The position numbers were made by a program, and so were the translations under genes. From the sequence record PP400786: a DNA stretch of 64,000 bases, one strand, 5' to 3'. Under the pieces are notes generated by a model. That model was given only the letters and a program-made list of their open reading frames with translations, was not told the origin of the DNA and made no database searches. Positions 15,692 through 62,582 of this stretch are shown piece after piece. Positions within the stretch are counted from its first letter, which is position 1. Every line of letters begins with the position of its first letter. The stretch is from Escherichia phage FL12.

Positions 15692-16294
15692 TTATAGATT
15701 AAATCCTTCAAAATCAAGAGTATAGATAGTGTATGTTGAATACTTTTTGTACTCATATCTATCTGCAATTCTAAATACACTTCCAGCTGGTATCATTACT
15801 TCTTGTTCATCTGAAACTAATTCCATATTACGATAACGATGGCTATCTGGAAACTTAAAACTTGGACTATATTCTTTACAACGTAGAGCTTTTATAGCAT
15901 ACTCCTGGAAATTAAACACCATAGGAGCTTTGAATTCAAAAATAACTTGTGTGTTGTATTCTAATCCAGAAGCAAAATGTAGAGCTATATTTTTATCATA
16001 TGAAGCTGATACTACTTTATCAAATGTAATAATATCAATTCCTTGATTTAACACCTGTTTAGTCTCAACTGGAACACCTCTCCAAAGAGGTTTATCGTTT
16101 GGAACCAAACGAGATTTGATTATTTCATTTAACCAAGAATGATCGTCTGGCTTATTAGTAATACAATGAATTAAAAGTTCAATTTCGGATAAATTAAATC
16201 CTTCAGAAAGTAATTCTTCACGAATAGAAGCACGCACCGATGCATCCATTGATTTGATTTTAAAATCTTTTAATTGCATTGCTGAATATTTCAT
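15692..16294 (-). CDS. modA: ADP-ribosyltransferase ModA
   Basis: 200 aa as T4 ModA; R (LWRG), S-x-S and ExE-like (EQEVMIP) ART motifs; tandem with modB. Confidence 0.65.
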   Translation of the reverse strand: MKYSAMQLKDFKIKSMDASVRASIREELLSEGFNLSEIELLIHCITNKPDDHSWLNEIIKSRLVPNDKPLWRGVPVETKQVLNQGIDIITFDKVVSASYDKNIALHFASGLEYNTQVIFEFKAPMVFNFQEYAIKALRCKEYSPSFKFPDSHRYRNMELVSDEQEVMIPAGSVFRIADRYEYKKYSTYTIYTLDFEGFNL

Positions 16295-16926
16295 TCAACT
16301 ACCTCAATATCATACACTTTAAATGTTCCAAACGAATCGTGTAATTTTTCTTTTGAAATAGAAGTTATTTTATACTTTCCAATTGGAATCATCCATTCTT
16401 GTTCACGTACAATCATCATTAAGTTATCAGTACGTTCTGAATCTAATCCATCTGTATCTTCATATGTATACTTAAACTCAGTATTAGGAGAAGAAAGTAT
16501 AATATCGCTGATATGGTCAGAATAATTAAAAGCTTTATCAGTTTTTAAGCGAAATATTATTTCAGTGAAATACTCAAAATAAGAAAAACCACATGCTGTG
16601 TGCAAACTAGTAGTAAATGAATCTACTCTGTTCGTTGAAAACACTTCTCCGACTTGTAAATCTTTAATGAGTTCTTTTGTCGATTTTGATATACCACGAT
16701 ATAACTGATAAGGCGATTTAGTTAAATGCTTTTTAACGATTTTATTCAACTGTTGATGAAGAGCTTCATTCTTTTTGGCTTCCATACATTGCCAAAGAAC
16801 TGACTGTTCAAAGTCAGTAAATTTTTCACAGACCTTTTTATACATATCATATTGAAAATCAACACTTTCAGCTTTTATAGATAATTGTTCAACATCTGCA
16901 AGATTAATAATCATGATAGCCTCCAT
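16291..16926 (-). CDS. modB: ADP-ribosyltransferase ModB
   Basis: 211 aa; paralog of ModA (QLYRG, EQEWMIPIG). Confidence 0.65.
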   Translation of the reverse strand: MEAIMIINLADVEQLSIKAESVDFQYDMYKKVCEKFTDFEQSVLWQCMEAKKNEALHQQLNKIVKKHLTKSPYQLYRGISKSTKELIKDLQVGEVFSTNRVDSFTTSLHTACGFSYFEYFTEIIFRLKTDKAFNYSDHISDIILSSPNTEFKYTYEDTDGLDSERTDNLMMIVREQEWMIPIGKYKITSISKEKLHDSFGTFKVYDIEVVE

Positions 16927-19608: not shown

Positions 19609-19805
19609 TTTGAATGCTCTATAATTAATTTTAAGGCTTCTTCGCTGACAAAAATTTCGTCAGGACCTTCTTCTATAACCCAATCAACCATACGAAGTTG
19701 ATTAGTTAAGAGCTCACATACGAGCTCCTTGTTATAATCTTTAAATAGCTGGTTAATACGTTTCTTATGGGCTTTCTTAAGCTGACGCTTATTTAAACGA
19801 GCCAT
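19605..19805 (-). CDS. hypothetical small basic protein
   Basis: 66 aa ORF. Confidence 0.45.
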   Translation of the reverse strand: MARLNKRQLKKAHKKRINQLFKDYNKELVCELLTNQLRMVDWVIEEGPDEIFVSEEALKLIIEHSK

Positions 19806-20323
19806 TAATAACCTCGGTCTTGACGAGCGAAGTTTTCAGCATTTTTCAGGTAATAAAGTTTAAAGATTTCTTCAGCTGACATTCCAAGAGCAATAAATTT
19901 ATTCATGAAAAAGTGAAATTGGTCAATCAGTTCAAATTTAATTTCAAGCTGATCTTCGGGAGATAAATCTTGAATTTTCTTGGATTGCATTTCAGAATAA
20001 CGTTTCTTCCAAGGTTTCCATACAGCAGAAGCTTCTTTTTCACCATTACTCATACCACCAAGAGAAGTATATAGTTCGCGAGTTTCATCTGCGATATAAT
20101 CGTCTTGGTTTCGCAACCAAGCAAGAACTTCTCCTGCGGTTTCAAGTGAATCAGGATGACGATTTGTTTCTGGTTTATCATTAGCCAAACGAATCTGTAA
20201 ATGCCGCTGCATATCAAGCATAACCTGCAGTGGGTCAATATTGTGCATAATATTCTCAGCATATGCACGATTTGCTTTATCAACACCTTCGATCAAATGA
20301 GCACATTCATTAAAGTAAGCCAT
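19805..20323 (-). CDS. 56: dCTP pyrophosphatase gp56 (MazG-like)
   Basis: About 172 aa from internal ATG (MAYFNECAHL...); all-alpha NTP-PPase-like; ORF-track N-terminal extension reads into the intergenic promoter. Confidence 0.65.
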   Translation of the reverse strand: MAYFNECAHLIEGVDKANRAYAENIMHNIDPLQVMLDMQRHLQIRLANDKPETNRHPDSLETAGEVLAWLRNQDDYIADETRELYTSLGGMSNGEKEASAVWKPWKKRYSEMQSKKIQDLSPEDQLEIKFELIDQFHFFMNKFIALGMSAEEIFKLYYLKNAENFARQDRGY

Positions 20324-20394
20324 TATTTTTCCTTTCAATTCATGGGTTAGTAGATTAATTATACAATAAATATATAAAGCAATAAGGAGGACAT

Positions 20395-20595
20395 ATGGTA
20401 CAAAAATTAATGGCACTTGTTAATGCCATAAAAGGTAATAAAAAACGTATAGCTTTTACTATTTCTGCTATGGTAGGAATTTTACTCTGGAACTTTATTC
20501 TATCACCTGTTGCAATTGCGCATGGTATTAATATTCCAGTAGTTACTCTTGATACATTTGTAGATTTAGCATTTGCTTTAGTTGGGTTGATTTAA
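20395..20595 (+). CDS. small membrane protein (only convincing plus-strand gene in window)
   Basis: 66 aa with two hydrophobic helices; perfect SD AAGGAGG 5 nt before ATG at 20395; stop overlaps gp61 stop convergently. Confidence 0.6.
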   Translation: MVQKLMALVNAIKGNKKRIAFTISAMVGILLWNFILSPVAIAHGINIPVVTLDTFVDLAFALVGLI

Positions 20596-21620
20596 ATCTT
20601 AGCATATTTAGATAGCCGCATTTTAGCCATCAACCCCTGGGCAATATTATTTTTCATATATTCCATAATTTGTTCAGGGGTTGCACCTTCCTTTCTAATC
20701 ATATCATTGACATCTTTTGATTTCCAGGGAGATTTATCCCAAAACATAACCCTTTCTCCTGCATCAACTAATTTAGTCATTCGTTTGATAGTGTCAGGGT
20801 GACGAGGTTCATTATCTAAAACCCACACTCGTCTATCTTTAAATGGAACAACTTCTAGGTCTAATTGACCACCTGTAATAGCTATACCATTTTCAATAAA
20901 AAGTGAATCTATAGGTCCTTCTAGAACATATACATCACCATCTTTAACTCGTTCAACTCCATAGATTTTTGTTGCCTCAGGATAAGCTTTGATGGTGATA
21001 TATTTTTGAGGAGCATCTTTCTTTAATGCACGTCCTTGAAAAGACTCAGCTTTTCCATTAGCATTATAAATTGGAATAACAAGACGAGGCTCAGATATTT
21101 CCTTTTTATATGTTCCCGGTGCTATACTATTAACTAATTTAGGCCATTCGGTTGTAAACCAAAGATATTTCCATTTATCCTTTGGAATACAACGAGCTTT
21201 TACGTATTTTATAATTGGGTGGTCTTCCGCCAGTTTATCTAATCTAACACATGACGGAAGAGATTTAATTATTTTCTTCTCAGGTTGTTTAGGAAGTTCT
21301 TTAGGTTTTTCTACTGGACGACTTTTACCTTTTTCTTTTCTTATTTCAAAGATATACTCACGATATAAATCAGGTTCAAACTCCTTTAAATATATTCCGA
21401 TTGGTGCATGATAGTTACAGTTATAACAATGAATATTTCCTTCATTATTATCACCATAATACCATCCACGAGCTTTATTCTGGTCGGTTTTTGAATCTCC
21501 ACAAACAGGGCATCTAAACCGCAATTTAAAAGTTGAACTATTATTTACTTGTGTGAATTTAGGTAAATGAGCTAATGCACGGTATGCAAACTCATTATCA
21601 ATCCAAGGTATTGATGACAT
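20592..21620 (-). CDS. 61: DNA primase gp61
   Basis: 342 aa as T4 gp61; N-terminal zinc ribbon CPVCGDS...CYNC; Toprim region. Confidence 0.85.
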   Translation of the reverse strand: MSSIPWIDNEFAYRALAHLPKFTQVNNSSTFKLRFRCPVCGDSKTDQNKARGWYYGDNNEGNIHCYNCNYHAPIGIYLKEFEPDLYREYIFEIRKEKGKSRPVEKPKELPKQPEKKIIKSLPSCVRLDKLAEDHPIIKYVKARCIPKDKWKYLWFTTEWPKLVNSIAPGTYKKEISEPRLVIPIYNANGKAESFQGRALKKDAPQKYITIKAYPEATKIYGVERVKDGDVYVLEGPIDSLFIENGIAITGGQLDLEVVPFKDRRVWVLDNEPRHPDTIKRMTKLVDAGERVMFWDKSPWKSKDVNDMIRKEGATPEQIMEYMKNNIAQGLMAKMRLSKYAKI

Positions 21621-21788: not shown

Positions 21789-22130
21789 TTAACCTCTATT
21801 CATAAAAGCATTAAAAATTTGGTCATCAATAGATGGCGCAGTAATATTTTCTGCATCATTTAGCAAATCATTAATTTCATCAGATAGCATAACACATGTA
21901 CCTTTATTTCCTGTAATTGTTACTGCACAATTACGAACGTTTTCTTTATCAAATTTTAGGTTAATATTTTCGTAGTGAAAATCCTTTAATGCCGAATATA
22001 TCTTTAAAATGAAATTGTCTTTTACTACAATAAACCCAACCTCACTATTAAAACGTGGTTCATGGAAACTGTAATAAACCTTTTCATCTATAAAATCGTA
22101 TGAAATTTTTCCATTTTTAAATATGAAAAT
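21789..22130 (-). pseudogene. truncated paralog (C-terminal half) of the adjacent 210-aa gene; no start codon
   Basis: About 114 open codons ending ...SIDDQIFNAFMNRG, nearly identical to the C-terminus of 22146-22778 (...SIDDQIFNAFMNRD); about 45 nt of near-identical DNA at both 3' ends; no in-frame ATG/GTG. Confidence 0.5.
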
Positions 22131-22145
22131 TCAGAACTATACATA

Positions 22146-22778
22146 TTAATCTCTATTCATAAAAGCATTAAAAATTTGATCGTCAATAGAAACTTTTACT
22201 TTAGGCTGTTCTTCAAACGGTAATTCATATCCACATATTACAATTTTGTGATCGATACCAAAATACACAGAAGCAATATTATTAATATTATTTTCAGTGA
22301 AATCTAAATCAACATCAATATCTTTTTGACTAACGCTCAAAGGATAATTAATACGAATAATTCGATTATCTTTAACAAAGATTCCACCGACATACTCTGT
22401 GCTGCGTTTAAAGTTTACACGTTTCCTAAATGAAAAATATTCAGGTTCTTTATGGGCTCGACTCATAGGGCTTAAAGTGTATTCCGAATATGAAATATCA
22501 AATCCTACACCTTCAATATGAGCCAAAGTGTCATGATTAAACCAATTATAATCGTATGCCAAATCCATTAAATTGTAATATGTGAAAGGCACCGGATTAA
22601 CATCATATGTTGTACCTTTAAAATCTGCCCAGGCAACGATTTCGTTATCTTTAACAATTACAAAAATTGTGCCAATAAGATATCCACGGTTATTTTCATC
22701 AGGCGTTATATTATAACATTGTGCATCAGGAAATTTACCGTATTTAAACGGTGGATTTTTGTGCATATAATAAATCAT
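22146..22778 (-). CDS. hypothetical protein (parent copy of the duplication)
   Basis: 210 aa ORF. Confidence 0.55.
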   Translation of the reverse strand: MIYYMHKNPPFKYGKFPDAQCYNITPDENNRGYLIGTIFVIVKDNEIVAWADFKGTTYDVNPVPFTYYNLMDLAYDYNWFNHDTLAHIEGVGFDISYSEYTLSPMSRAHKEPEYFSFRKRVNFKRSTEYVGGIFVKDNRIIRINYPLSVSQKDIDVDLDFTENNINNIASVYFGIDHKIVICGYELPFEEQPKVKVSIDDQIFNAFMNRD

Positions 22779-59723: not shown

Positions 59724-60305
59724 CTAACCGAGCTTTTTGGTTAATTCATTCCAATGTTTTCTACACAAAGAAACATAAATTTCATCACCAATACAGATTT
59801 GATTACCTTCTTTAACTGGTGTTCCATCTTCCATTAATCGAGCTGTCATAATCGCTTTTTTACCGCAATGACAAACTGCTTTTAGTTCAATAAGTTTATC
59901 TGCAATCGCTAAAAGTTCTTTAGAACCTTCAAATAATTTTCCAGCGAAATCAGTCCTTAATCCATAAGCCATAACAGGAACATTATATGTATCAACAATT
60001 CGGCTCAATTGATGCACCTGTTCAGTTTTTAAAAACTGAGCTTCATCTACAAATACGCAATGAATATCTTTTTGTGCTTCAGCCCATTTATAGAACTCGA
60101 AAATATCCATATCATCTGTAATAATATTCGCTTCCTGCTTAATTCCAATGCGAGAAACGACTTCACAGACAGAATCGCGAGTATCAATAGCAGGCTTAAG
60201 AACTAATACACTCATTCCACGTTCTTTATAATTATGCGCAGCAGTCAAAAGAGAAGCAGATTTTCCAGCATTCATTGCTGCATAAGTAAAAATTAAACTC
60301 GCCAT
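59724..60305 (-). CDS. tk: thymidine kinase
   Basis: 193 aa as T4 Tk; P-loop AAMNAGKS; C-terminal zinc-binding cysteines. Confidence 0.85.
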   Translation of the reverse strand: MASLIFTYAAMNAGKSASLLTAAHNYKERGMSVLVLKPAIDTRDSVCEVVSRIGIKQEANIITDDMDIFEFYKWAEAQKDIHCVFVDEAQFLKTEQVHQLSRIVDTYNVPVMAYGLRTDFAGKLFEGSKELLAIADKLIELKAVCHCGKKAIMTARLMEDGTPVKEGNQICIGDEIYVSLCRKHWNELTKKLG

Positions 60306-60314
60306 ATCACCTTC

Positions 60315-60506
60315 TTAAAGCGTATTCACATAAGCTATTAATTCATTTTCTTTCTTATCAAACCGATCAGCAAATTCTTCCTGCTGTTCAGGAGATAGCG
60401 GGCCGTATTCATCATAAAAGGTGTTTGCTTCTGTATGCTCATCTAGAAGTTCATTGATAAGCTCAAACAATTTATCTTTTTGTTCTTTACTCAGACTCAT
60501 AACCAT
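60315..60506 (-). CDS. hypothetical small acidic protein
   Basis: 63 aa. Confidence 0.4.
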   Translation of the reverse strand: MVMSLSKEQKDKLFELINELLDEHTEANTFYDEYGPLSPEQQEEFADRFDKKENELIAYVNTL

Positions 60507-60724
60507 GTCACCTTTAAGCAGTATTCTTCTACATGCTGTTTACGACCTTTCTTATCAATAAAGGTATATTCAACGAATGTTCCAATGTAGTCTTTATCTA
60601 CATCATGTGGACTATTAATTGGACATTTAGTACGGCAAATGCGTTCCCATTGACGAATAATTACTGCCTTATTCTTTGGGTCATACGGATGTGGATAATG
60701 TATATTCATAATAACGGTTCCCAA
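60497..60724 (-). CDS. hypothetical small protein
   Basis: 75 aa. Confidence 0.4.
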   Translation of the reverse strand: MGTVIMNIHYPHPYDPKNKAVIIRQWERICRTKCPINSPHDVDKDYIGTFVEYTFIDKKGRKQHVEEYCLKVTWL

Positions 60725-61173
60725 TCAACAATCACAATTTCTAATTTAGAGGAATATGTATCTAAAATCCCCTCAATAATATCCCAGTTCCCTCTACCTA
60801 TGCCTGCACCAATCCTAGGCACATAGATTGTAGGTTTAATCAGTTTATTTTCACCAAACTCATTTAATTCTAACATACAATTCATTAAAGCGGAATACTC
60901 AAAATTTGGCCCTGGTTGAAATTGAGTATAAAGGTTGAAGCAATACGCTTTATGAGTCCTAAAGTATTTTTCATAGACTGAGTAAGAACCGAGTTTAGTT
61001 ACATCACCCCATTCAGTCTGTAATTTATCAGCTTCCAAAATTTTAGGGAAAGCTTTGGTTAATTGACCCGCTACGCCTGAACCCATAGTATGAAAACAAT
61101 TGCATCCATGCGCAATATTTTTACCTTCAGCGAAAAGGGCGACAATATCGCCCTTGATATATTTTACAATCAT
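60706..61173 (-). CDS. macrodomain protein, TARG1/OARD1-like (putative ADP-ribose hydrolase)
   Basis: 155 aa; YIKGDI...AHGCNCFHTMGSGVAGQL and YVPRIGAGIGRGNW resemble TARG1 motifs (YVKGDL...MGAGIA, PRIGCGLDRLQW) as remembered. Confidence 0.6.
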   Translation of the reverse strand: MIVKYIKGDIVALFAEGKNIAHGCNCFHTMGSGVAGQLTKAFPKILEADKLQTEWGDVTKLGSYSVYEKYFRTHKAYCFNLYTQFQPGPNFEYSALMNCMLELNEFGENKLIKPTIYVPRIGAGIGRGNWDIIEGILDTYSSKLEIVIVDWEPLL

Positions 61174-61517
61174 CTAGTACTCAATCCTCGATTATAAGAA
61201 TCTACCAAACGGTCAACCATTGAATGACAAGCGGCTTTATCTTTCTCCTCCGCAACTGAGCATTCTAAGGTATTCCACTTTTTAGCATATCGTTTTAATA
61301 ATGTATCGTTTTTGTATCTGCTTGATTTATCTCTTTCTCCGTCTTTATATGCATATATTAATTTCTGTGCAAATTCAGCTTGGCATGCTTTATTTTTCCC
61401 ACAATAATCTGCCGCAGTGCGGTTTACATATTCTCTAATTTCAGTATATGATGTATCTGCTGACGCAGAAGCAGAAAATGAAATTAATCCTATACATAAA
61501 ACCAAAATTTTAGTCAT
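61170..61517 (-). CDS. secreted small protein
   Basis: 115 aa; signal peptide MTKILVLCIGLISFSASASA; four Cys. Confidence 0.5.
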   Translation of the reverse strand: MTKILVLCIGLISFSASASADTSYTEIREYVNRTAADYCGKNKACQAEFAQKLIYAYKDGERDKSSRYKNDTLLKRYAKKWNTLECSVAEEKDKAACHSMVDRLVDSYNRGLSTR

Positions 61518-62550: not shown

Positions 62551-62582
62551 AATTATACCACAGTCAAGAGGAAAAGTAAACA
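62551..62582 (-). promoter_or_regulatory. T4-type early promoter upstream of regB
   Basis: Minus strand GTTTAC plus 18 nt plus TATAAT; GAGGAG RBS before regB ATG. Confidence 0.5.

What the first reader, a model, noticed from the sequence alone, without database searches (positions are those of the whole stretch)
60706..61173. Phage-encoded TARG1-like macrodomain: candidate reverser of ADP-ribosylation
The 155-aa protein carries the two signature segments of the TARG1/OARD1 macrodomain family, to which DarG antitoxin macrodomains also belong. The phage itself encodes ADP-ribosyltransferases (modA/modB in this window). A phage macrodomain could therefore either counter host ADP-ribosylating defence such as DarT-type DNA modification, or tune the phage's own ModA/ModB marks. 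The function is not evident from position alone.
Basis: partly seen in the sequence, partly recalled or inferred. Interest (0 to 1): 0.7.

Follow-up and report, generated by a model that had tools for sequence, protein, structure and literature searches.

The report
T4 tk.4/adfM anti-DarT macrodomain gene
This gene is the counterpart of phage T4 tk.4, a small ADP-ribose-handling enzyme that a 2025 preprint already showed protects T4 from the bacterial DarTG2 defence, so the finding is correct but not new.

Summary
The ORF is real: 60706-61173 on the minus strand, 155 aa. The window is a T4-like Tequatrovirus, and the protein is 98.7% identical to T4 Tk.4 and sits in the same place (regB-vs.1-vs-tk.4-tk.3-tk).

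A transposon screen and a clean tk.4 knockout made T4 sensitive to DarTG2, and the gene was renamed adfM (bioRxiv, Nov 2025).

Two points need correcting:
- **Catalytic residues.** The TARG1 Lys84/Asp125 dyad and the DarG Lys80 are absent. Their positions hold Gln84 (invariant in 262/262 relatives) and Gly/Ala126. This matches Streptomyces SCO6735, which cleaves thymidine-ADP-ribose with a Gln.
- **Closest characterised relative.** Apart from T4 Tk.4 itself, this is neither DarG nor the PhiKZ "AdfM". It is Vibrio phage Gary Adpp, an ADP-ribose-1''-phosphate phosphatase (35% identity, same invariant residues).

Removal of ADP-ribose from DNA by Tk.4 is therefore inferred, not shown.

Verdict: already known, with moderate residual interest in the chemistry.

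The parts
60706..61173 (-). tk.4 / adfM coding sequence: a 155-aa stand-alone macrodomain protein.
61099..61110 (-). Codons His22-Gly23-Cys24-Asn25, the start of the ADP-ribose-binding loop. Asn25 corresponds to DarG N22, PhiKZ AdfM N23 and SCO6735 N27.
   Evidence: Codons read (CAT at 61110-61108, AAT at 61101-61099). N25 in 261/262 and H22 in 248/262 relatives. Roles of the equivalent residues.
61027..61029 (-). Codon Asp49, a family-specific invariant residue of unknown role.
   Evidence: GAT codon. D in 262/262 relatives. Aligns to Tyr in BT1257, SCO6735 and DarG. Asp is also present in Gary Adpp and, in the pairwise HMMER alignment, in Poa1p.
60922..60936 (-). Codons Asn80-Leu-Tyr-Thr-Gln84. 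Gln84 occupies the position of the catalytic Lys of TARG1 (K84), DarG (K80) and PhiKZ AdfM (K78), and of Gln85 of SCO6735.
   Evidence: AAC at 60936-60934 and CAA at 60924-60922. hhalign against TARG1, SCO6735 and DarG. MAFFT alignment. Q in 262/262, N80 in 260/262, Y82 in 261/262 relatives.
60790..60819 (-). Codons Pro119-Gly128 (PRIGAGIGRG), the glycine-rich diphosphate-binding loop. Gly126 occupies the position of TARG1 Asp125.
   Evidence: hhalign against TARG1. Family column 126 is Ala 189, Gly 71, never Asp. G122 and G124 correspond to SCO6735 G126 and G128.
61170..61173 (-). ATGA overlap: the stop codon of vs (TGA) overlaps the start codon of tk.4 (ATG). This suggests translational coupling.
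   Evidence: Sequence read directly.
60706..60709 (-). ATGA overlap: the stop codon of tk.4 overlaps the ATG of the tk.3 homologue.
   Evidence: Sequence read directly. T4 annotation shows the same 4-base overlaps.
61185..61189 (-). Shine-Dalgarno-like GAGGA, 11 nt upstream of the tk.4 ATG and inside the 3' end of vs.
   Evidence: Sequence read directly. A ribosome binding site is annotated at this gene in T4 record X04567.
61170..61517 (-). vs (valyl-tRNA synthetase modifier), the upstream neighbour in the same gene run.
   Evidence: ORF. T4 annotation by synteny.
60497..60709 (-). tk.3 homologue, the downstream neighbour (70 aa from the ATG at 60709).
   Evidence: ORF. T4 annotation.
62552..62580 (-). 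Best sigma-70-like promoter match in the region (TTTACT-17-TATAAT with TG), just upstream of regB. It is a candidate early promoter for the regB-vs.1-vs-tk.4-tk.3-tk run.
   Evidence: Consensus scan only: 10 of 12 matches. The number of such sites in the region is no higher than in shuffles, so this is weak evidence.

Best explanation
The gene is the orthologue of T4 tk.4, now called adfM (anti-DarT factor, macrodomain). It sits in a tightly packed run of minus-strand genes, the orientation of T4 early and middle genes.

It encodes a 155-aa stand-alone macrodomain that binds the ADP-ribose placed by the host toxin DarT2 on thymidine N3 in single-stranded phage DNA. It hydrolyses the ribose C1''-N bond and releases free ADP-ribose, so replication can go on in DarTG2 hosts.

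The chemistry cannot be the lysine-based mechanism of TARG1 or DarG. The best model is the one proposed for SCO6735. In that model Gln84, held in place by Asn25, positions the distal ribose and stabilises the transition state, and a bound water acts as proton donor. Family-invariant Asp49 and His22 are candidate extra catalytic groups.

Basis of each step:
- Shown here: orthology, fold, class and residue pattern.
- Shown in the literature, for T4: the anti-DarTG2 phenotype.
- Inferred: enzymatic removal of ADP-ribose from DNA by this protein, and its mechanism.

The same active site probably also removes other 1'' substituents such as phosphate, as shown for its relative Adpp.
For: **Identity with T4 tk.4.** 98.7% identity and the same neighbours as T4 tk.4.

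**Genetics in T4.** tk.4 was the only significant hit on a DarTG2 host, and a clean knockout was sensitised to DarTG2.

**Fold and class.**
- AlphaFold2 pLDDT 95.2.
- Foldseek top hits are TARG1, Poa1p, BT1257 and DarG.
- The PADLOC DarG model matches the macro part at E 1e-9.

**A precedent without lysine.** SCO6735 has Gln85 at the Lys position and cleaves DarT-made thymidine-ADP-ribose. Its Q85A and N27S mutants are dead, and it rescues cells from DarT. Tk.4 aligns Q84 to Q85 and N25 to N27.

**Purifying selection on the pocket.** Q84, D49 and A35 are invariant in 262/262 relatives. N25 and Y82 are each kept in 261/262.

**A phage macrodomain does this job elsewhere.** PhiKZ AdfM removes DarT2 marks from DNA in vitro.

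**Fusions.** Family members are fused to NADAR + DUF4326 and to NUDIX. This fits a role in ADP-ribose removal and product disposal.
Against: - No biochemical assay of Tk.4 was found in the searchable literature. The T4 preprint itself says enzymatic removal 'seems likely'.
- The catalytic Lys of DarG, TARG1 and PhiKZ AdfM is missing. The DNA-positioning Lys34 and Lys89 of SCO6735 and its longer mobile loop are missing too.
- The closest characterised relative is a small-molecule phosphatase, Adpp, not a DNA hydrolase.
- In the text I read, the T4 knockout was not complemented. tk.4 is translationally coupled to tk.3, so a polar effect is not formally excluded.
- The phenotype was measured in T4, not in this phage.
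Confidence: 0.72

Rival explanations
1. The protein's main activity is ADP-ribose-1''-phosphate phosphatase, as for Adpp and Poa1p and as in the database label 'phosphatase'. It would clear ADPR-1''P made by RES-type NADases or by RNA 2'-phosphotransferase. Under this reading the DarTG2 phenotype is a side activity or indirect.
For: - Gary Adpp, shown in vitro to convert ADPR-1''P to ADPR, is 35% identical (BLASTP E 4e-23; hhalign probability 99.9%, E 4e-33).
- Adpp keeps His22, Asn25, Asp49, Asn80, Tyr82 and Gln84.
- Both proteins fall in PHROG 335 'phosphatase'.
Against: - Adpp works only as part of the Adps-Adpp-Namat operon. The window has no Adps or Namat homologue, and the neighbours here are vs and tk.3.
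- Namat homologues occur in only 189 Escherichia phage records, against 972 with Tk.4 homologues.
- A T4-like phage carrying a 98.1%-identical Tk.4 (KAW1E185) was the test phage for rescue from the Nezha system by NARP pathways supplied in trans. This suggests it has no NAD+ reconstitution pathway of its own.
- Adpp-type proteins have Gly83 and a 7-residue insertion after Gln84, which are absent here and in the 262 closest relatives.
- The only condition-specific phenotype reported for tk.4 is on DarTG2.
Confidence: 0.12
2. Tk.4 neutralises DarT2 without catalysis. It would do so by binding the toxin or by shielding ADP-ribosylated or target DNA.
For: Catalytically dead SCO6735 Q85A, DarG K80A and TARG1 K84A still inhibit DarT in vitro, with SCO6735 the strongest. 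Other phage anti-DarT factors (AdfA, AdfB) are direct inhibitors.
Against: - The ADP-ribose pocket residues are invariant across 262 relatives from phages of many hosts. This fits an enzyme better than a binder of one fast-evolving toxin.
- Tk.4 lacks the C-terminal DarT-binding domain of DarG. It matches only positions 2-145 of the 329- and 338-position DarG models.
Confidence: 0.08
3. Tk.4 erases or tunes the phage's own ADP-ribosylation by Alt, ModA and ModB (arginine-ADP-ribose on host proteins, or ModB RNAylation).
For: modA and modB are in the same window, also on the minus strand. Macro domains and ADP-ribosyltransferases are both enriched in myoviruses (PMC9503650). An arginine-specific macrodomain exists (Legionella MavL; title and abstract listed).
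Against: - Tk.4 homologues occur in 2747 phage records against 1010 for ModA/ModB homologues. They include many phages of Pseudomonas, Vibrio, Acinetobacter and Aeromonas, genera absent from the ten most frequent among the ModB hits.
- The gene is not adjacent to modA/modB; it lies about 44 kb away.
- ALC1-like macrodomains are known to act on ester- and thymidine-linked ADP-ribose, not arginine-linked (my own knowledge, not tested here).
- The only condition-specific phenotype reported for tk.4 is on DarTG2.
Confidence: 0.05

Closest known systems
T4 Tk.4 = AdfM (anti-DarT factor macrodomain; bioRxiv 10.1101/2025.11.20.689424)
   Same: 98.7% identical (153 of 155 residues; differences M118V and K127R). 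Same flanking genes vs and tk.3, and the same 4-base overlaps.
   Different: This is a different T4-like phage, which lacks one of T4's tk.1/tk.2 paralogues next to the gene. The anti-DarTG2 phenotype was measured only in T4.
Adpp of Vibrio phage Gary (KNV71_gp137), ADP-ribose-1''-phosphate phosphatase of the NARP1-AP pathway (bioRxiv 10.64898/2026.01.28.702374)
   Same: Closest biochemically characterised relative: 35% identity, hhalign probability 99.9%. It keeps the same invariant His22, Asn25, Asp49, Asn80, Tyr82 and Gln84. It is also a stand-alone protein of about 155 aa.
   Different: Adpp sits between Adps and Namat, genes that are absent from this window. It has Gly83 and a 7-residue insertion after the Gln. 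Its known substrate is a small molecule, not DNA.
Streptomyces coelicolor SCO6735 and Bacteroides BT1257 (Gln-type ALC1-like macrodomains; PMC9411070)
   Different: Only 20-29% identity. Tk.4 lacks the 5-residue-longer mobile loop and Lys34/Lys89, and it has family-specific Asp49 and Tyr82-Thr83.
DarG antitoxin macrodomain (T. aquaticus, M. tuberculosis) and PhiKZ gp104 'AdfM' (PMC13309987)
   Same: Same fold class, the same conserved Asn, and the same biological target (DarT2 marks on thymidine). All are in PHROG 335.
   Different: The catalytic Lys (K80 in DarG, K78 in PhiKZ) is Gln here. Tk.4 has no C-terminal DarT-binding domain and no adjacent darT. It shares only 20% identity with PhiKZ gp104 (BLASTP E 0.004). 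It scores 36 bits on the PADLOC DarG model against 133 bits for PhiKZ. Two unrelated lineages of macrodomain now share the name AdfM.
Human TARG1/OARD1
   Same: Fold and both glycine-rich segments (hhalign probability 98.2%; top Foldseek hit, E 9e-10). The loop after the catalytic position has a similar short length.
   Different: Both residues of the Lys84/Asp125 catalytic dyad are absent, replaced by Gln84 and Gly126.

Membership tests
Macrodomain superfamily (Pfam PF01661) | Sequence match above the curated cut-off, and the macro fold. | tested here: met
ALC1-like class of macrodomains (TARG1, DarG, SCO6735, Poa1p, ALC1) | Closer in structure and sequence to these than to MacroD, viral, PARG or macroH2A classes. 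| tested here: met
T4 Tk.4 / AdfM orthologous group | Near-identical sequence in the conserved vs-tk.4-tk.3 position of a Tequatrovirus. | tested here: met
   98.7% identity, same neighbours and same overlaps.
T4 Tk.4 / AdfM orthologous group | Loss of the gene sensitises the phage to DarTG2. | not testable with these tools
   Reported for T4 only.
TARG1/OARD1 family | Catalytic Lys84. | tested here: not met
   Gln84 aligns with K84 (hhalign; MAFFT). No Lys in 262 relatives.
TARG1/OARD1 family | Catalytic Asp125 in the GxGLD loop. | tested here: not met
   Gly126 aligns with D125. The family column is Ala 189 and Gly 71, never Asp.
DarG antitoxin (DarTG2) | Macrodomain with conserved Asn22 and catalytic Lys80. 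| tested here: not met
   The Asn is present (N25) but K80 aligns with Gln84.
DarG antitoxin (DarTG2) | C-terminal DarT-binding domain and full-length model match. | tested here: not met
   The protein is 155 aa and matches only positions 2-145 of the 329-position PADLOC model and 2-146 of the 338-position NCBIfam model. NCBIfam equivalog score is 30.3 bits against cut-off 250.
DarG antitoxin (DarTG2) | Encoded next to a darT toxin gene. | tested here: not met
   The neighbours are vs and tk.3.
SCO6735/BT1257 subclass (Gln-type thymidine-ADP-ribose hydrolases) | Gln at the Lys position, held by the conserved Asn. | tested here: met
   Q84 aligns with Q85, N25 with N27 and N80 with N81. Roles are from PMC9411070.
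SCO6735/BT1257 subclass (Gln-type thymidine-ADP-ribose hydrolases) | Mobile loop 5 residues longer than in DarG and TARG1, with Lys89, plus Lys34. | tested here: not met
   hhalign places a 5-residue gap in Tk.4 opposite that loop. Ser32 and Gly88 stand at the positions of K34 and K89.
SCO6735/BT1257 subclass (Gln-type thymidine-ADP-ribose hydrolases) | Hydrolysis of thymidine-linked ADP-ribose on single-stranded DNA. | not testable with these tools
   Needs a biochemical assay.
Adpp (NARP1-AP ADP-ribose-1''-phosphate phosphatase) | Poa1p-like macrodomain homologous to Vibrio phage Gary gp137. | tested here: met
   35% identity, E 4e-23; hhalign probability 99.9%.
Adpp (NARP1-AP ADP-ribose-1''-phosphate phosphatase) | Encoded within an Adps-Adpp-Namat operon. 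| tested here: not met
   No Adps or Namat homologue in the 64-kb window by tblastn at E up to 0.01. Operon structure is seen in Gary and Thalassa.
Adpp (NARP1-AP ADP-ribose-1''-phosphate phosphatase) | Converts ADPR-1''P to ADPR. | not testable with these tools
   Needs a biochemical assay. It is plausible given the shared invariant residues.

The most novel reading that the evidence does not exclude
T4 AdfM and the NARP1-associated phosphatase Adpp belong to one phage-dominated enzyme family. The family has a single lysine-free active site (His22, Asn25, Asp49, Asn80, Tyr82, Gln84) that removes whatever is attached to C1'' of ADP-ribose.

Under this reading Tk.4 would be bifunctional: a thymidine-ADP-ribose DNA glycohydrolase and an ADPR-1''P phosphatase. 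Many of the stand-alone phage macrodomains annotated 'phosphatase' would be anti-DarT2 factors that use chemistry different from DarG.

Neither preprint cites the other's function.
Probability: 0.4. Interest if true: 0.55.

Novelty: already known. Interest (0 to 1): 0.3.

Why it matters
DarTG is a common toxin-antitoxin defence, and T-even phages are models and therapy candidates. Knowing which phage gene defeats DarTG2 helps predict host range.

That answer is already published for T4. What remains open is the enzyme chemistry:
- how a macrodomain with neither the DarG/TARG1 lysine nor the SCO6735 DNA-binding lysines cleaves a base-ribose bond;
- whether the same pocket also dephosphorylates ADPR-1''P.

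If one family does both, the function of a very large set of phage 'phosphatase' macrodomains becomes directly testable. That set comprises 2747 phage records, and more than 1200 cluster representatives at E 1e-30 or better.

Tried and rejected
1. **MAFFT alignment of Tk.4 with reference macrodomains.** It shifted BT1257 and SCO6735 by three columns around the catalytic position. I relied instead on the HMMER and hhalign alignments, which agree with the published structural alignment.
2. **Reading the AlphaFold2 model coordinates.** I wanted the distance from Asp49 and His22 to the ADP-ribose pocket. Coordinates are not exposed to the scripts, so the Asp49 idea stays untested.
3. **Bacterial homologues next to darT.** I looked for these as a sign of origin from a toxin-antitoxin pair. 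The two homologues labelled as bacterial MAG proteins (P0073, P0068) lie on T4-like phage contigs that carry Rnl1, Dda-like helicase, Pnk and DNA ligase genes. There is no darT neighbour.
4. **The Poa1p structure paper.** A search found nothing usable.
5. **A role against the CmdTAC mRNA ADP-ribosyltransferase or against Thoeris signals.** The papers retrieved gave no link to Tk.4, so I dropped this.
6. **Plus-strand ORFs and the terminator-like hairpin inside the gene (61135-61155, +).** Such sites are no more frequent than in shuffled sequence. I treat them as chance.
7. **Whether T4 as a whole lacks NARP1.** I fetched only 50 kb of T4 and did not continue. The claim rests on the window, the organism counts and the use of a T4-like phage as a sensitive tester.

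Full report
**1. The observation**

The ORF is exactly where the finding says, at 60706..61173, but on the minus strand. It starts with ATG and encodes 155 aa. Its start overlaps the stop of the upstream gene in an ATGA, and its stop overlaps the start of the downstream gene in the same way. A GAGGA sits 11 nt upstream of the ATG.

The region is 98-99% identical at the DNA level to many Tequatrovirus genomes. The gene order regB, vs.1, vs, this gene, tk.3, a small ORF, tk is that of phage T4. The protein is 98.7% identical to T4 Tk.4, listed as ORF 60.5 in the old T4 record X04567. The two differences are M118V and K127R.

**2. What the protein is**

- Pfam Macro is matched above its curated cut-off.
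- A 58-sequence family alignment (A1) gave an AlphaFold2 model with mean pLDDT 95.2 and pTM 0.90.
- Foldseek against the PDB puts TARG1, Poa1p, BT1257 and DarG on top.
- The family profile against PDB sequences gives BT1257 1e-18, TARG1 3e-15, SCO6735 5e-15, Poa1p 9e-14 and M. tuberculosis DarG 1e-13.

So the class-level assignment is sound: this is an ALC1-like macrodomain, the class that holds TARG1 and DarG. That tk.4 carries an A1pp/macro domain has been in print since 2006 (PMC1524935).

**3. What is already known about function**

A bioRxiv preprint of November 2025 (HIDEN-SEQ, 10.1101/2025.11.20.689424) infected a DarTG2-expressing E. coli with a T4 transposon library. tk.4 was the single significant hit. 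A clean tk.4 knockout was sensitised to DarTG2, and the gene was renamed adfM.

The authors write that enzymatic removal of ADP-ribose from DNA "seems likely", by analogy. They report no assay.

A separate Cell Reports paper (PMC13309987) gave the same name, AdfM, to PhiKZ gp104. It showed in vitro that this protein removes DarT2 marks from DNA.

I found no paper in the library that tests Tk.4 biochemically.

**4. The catalytic residues**

- Profile-profile alignment puts TARG1 K84 opposite Tk.4 Gln84, and TARG1 D125 opposite Gly126.
- T. aquaticus DarG K80 and PhiKZ K78 fall in the same column as Gln84.
- Across 262 family members, including 150 representatives of 50%-identity clusters from a 1.8-billion-protein library, position 84 is Gln in all 262. 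Position 126 is Ala or Gly and never Asp.

It would give the wrong answer. S. coelicolor SCO6735 has Gln85 at this position and cleaves DarT-made thymidine-ADP-ribose faster than DarG or TARG1. It loses all activity as Q85A or N27S, and it protects cells from DarT (PMC9411070). Tk.4 aligns Q84 with Q85, N25 with N27 and N80 with N81.

Tk.4 is not simply an SCO6735, however. It lacks the five-residue-longer mobile loop and the DNA-positioning Lys34 and Lys89. It also has its own invariant residues, notably Asp49, Tyr82 and Thr83.

**5. The closest characterised relative**

A January 2026 preprint (10.64898/2026.01.28.702374) describes Adpp, a Poa1p-like macrodomain of Vibrio phage Gary. It is encoded between Adps and Namat. 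It converts ADP-ribose-1''-phosphate to ADP-ribose in vitro and lets the NARP1 pathway overcome the aRES defence.

I fetched that gene (KNV71_gp137, L006:2501-2977).

- It is 35% identical to the window protein (BLASTP E 4e-23).
- It matches the Tk.4 family profile at probability 99.9%, E 4e-33.
- This is far closer than PhiKZ AdfM (20% identity, E 0.004), DarG, TARG1 or SCO6735.
- Adpp keeps His22, Asn25, Asp49, Asn80, Tyr82 and Gln84. It has Gly83 and a seven-residue insertion after the Gln.

The window has no Adps or Namat homologue, and the neighbours here are vs and tk.3. Namat homologues are found in 189 Escherichia phage records, against 972 with Tk.4 homologues. A T4-like phage with a 98.1%-identical Tk.4 (KAW1E185) was the test phage for rescue from the Nezha system by NARP pathways supplied in trans.

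So the Adpp operon role does not apply here, but the Adpp activity may well be present. Both substrates carry their leaving group on C1'' of ADP-ribose. One pocket doing both reactions is chemically reasonable, but that is inference.

**6. The ModA/ModB alternative**

Tk.4 homologues are found in 2747 phage records from many host genera. ModA/ModB homologues are found in 1010, and Pseudomonas, Vibrio, Acinetobacter and Aeromonas are absent from the ten most frequent genera among them. The two loci are about 44 kb apart. Nothing supports a dedicated partnership, and nothing excludes a side activity.

**7. Family size and associations**

The profile finds 18,258 cluster representatives at E 1e-3 or better, and 1,217 at 1e-30 or better.

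Some members are fused to NADAR and DUF4326, or to NUDIX. NADAR is the fold of the anti-DarT1 factor AdfN, which is T4 gene 30.3. These fusions fit ADP-ribose removal and product disposal.

Two homologues deposited as bacterial MAG proteins sit on T4-like phage contigs.

**8. Verdict**

The anti-DarT reading is right and already published for the T4 orthologue. The TARG1-type catalytic claim is wrong. The phosphatase relative was missed.
- Novelty: already known.
- What remains of interest is the unproven, lysine-free chemistry, and the possible identity of the "AdfM" and "Adpp" activities in one family.

Noticed in passing
window 19805-21620: T4 dam (DNA adenine methyltransferase) has no tblastn match anywhere in the window. 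Gene 56 (19808-20323, only 69% identical to T4 gp56) lies 265 bp from gene 61 (20592-21620), where T4 carries dam and a small plus-strand ORF.
   Followed up: partly
window 22152-22778 (-), and 21792-22085: A homologue of T4 61.2 (AdfA, the direct DarT inhibitor) is present at 73.7% amino-acid identity. A second, weaker match (35% identity over 103 aa) lies just downstream and may be a diverged partial paralogue. The window therefore carries two anti-DarT genes, adfA and adfM. adfN (T4 30.3) lies outside it.
   Followed up: partly
window 15692-16926 (-): modA (200 aa) and modB (211 aa) overlap by 4 bases. Both match PHROG 832 'RNA polymerase ADP-ribosylase' but match no Pfam family at E 0.01 or better.
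   Followed up: partly
window 60305-60709: There are only two small ORFs between tk and tk.4 (63 aa and 70 aa). T4 has three: tk.1 and tk.2, which are paralogues in PHROG 653, plus tk.3. Many close relatives show a roughly 375-bp longer region here.
   Followed up: no
proteins P0252 and P0172 (metagenomic relatives): Tk.4-family macrodomains occur fused to NADAR + DUF4326 (472 aa) and to NUDIX (247 aa). The first would join in one protein a Tk.4-family macrodomain and the fold that acts on guanosine-linked marks (NADAR). Several other long relatives (235-302 aa) have extensions with no Pfam match.
   Followed up: partly
L003 1960-2430; L004 1927-2397: In two T4-like phage contigs binned as bacterial MAGs (Cetobacterium, Bacilli), the macro gene lies after DUF4326, an Rnl1-type RNA ligase and a small ORF, and before a Dda-like helicase. 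This is a different position from T4.
   Followed up: no
window 61027-61029 (codon Asp49): Asp49 is invariant in 262/262 relatives and in Adpp, but is Tyr in BT1257, SCO6735 and DarG. Its role is unknown. A His22-Asp49 pair is a candidate replacement for the missing lysine.
   Followed up: partly
literature: Two independent groups gave the name AdfM to proteins that share only 20% identity and differ at the catalytic position: T4 Tk.4 has Gln84 and PhiKZ gp104 has Lys78. The Cell Reports paper states that no macrodomain Adf had been reported to date.
   Followed up: yes
window 61170-61517 (vs): The same T4 screen found the upstream gene vs to be the most depleted gene in minimal glucose medium. 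That is the medium used for the DarTG2 experiments. vs and tk.4 share an ATGA overlap, so polar or coupling effects between the two phenotypes deserve a control.
   Followed up: no
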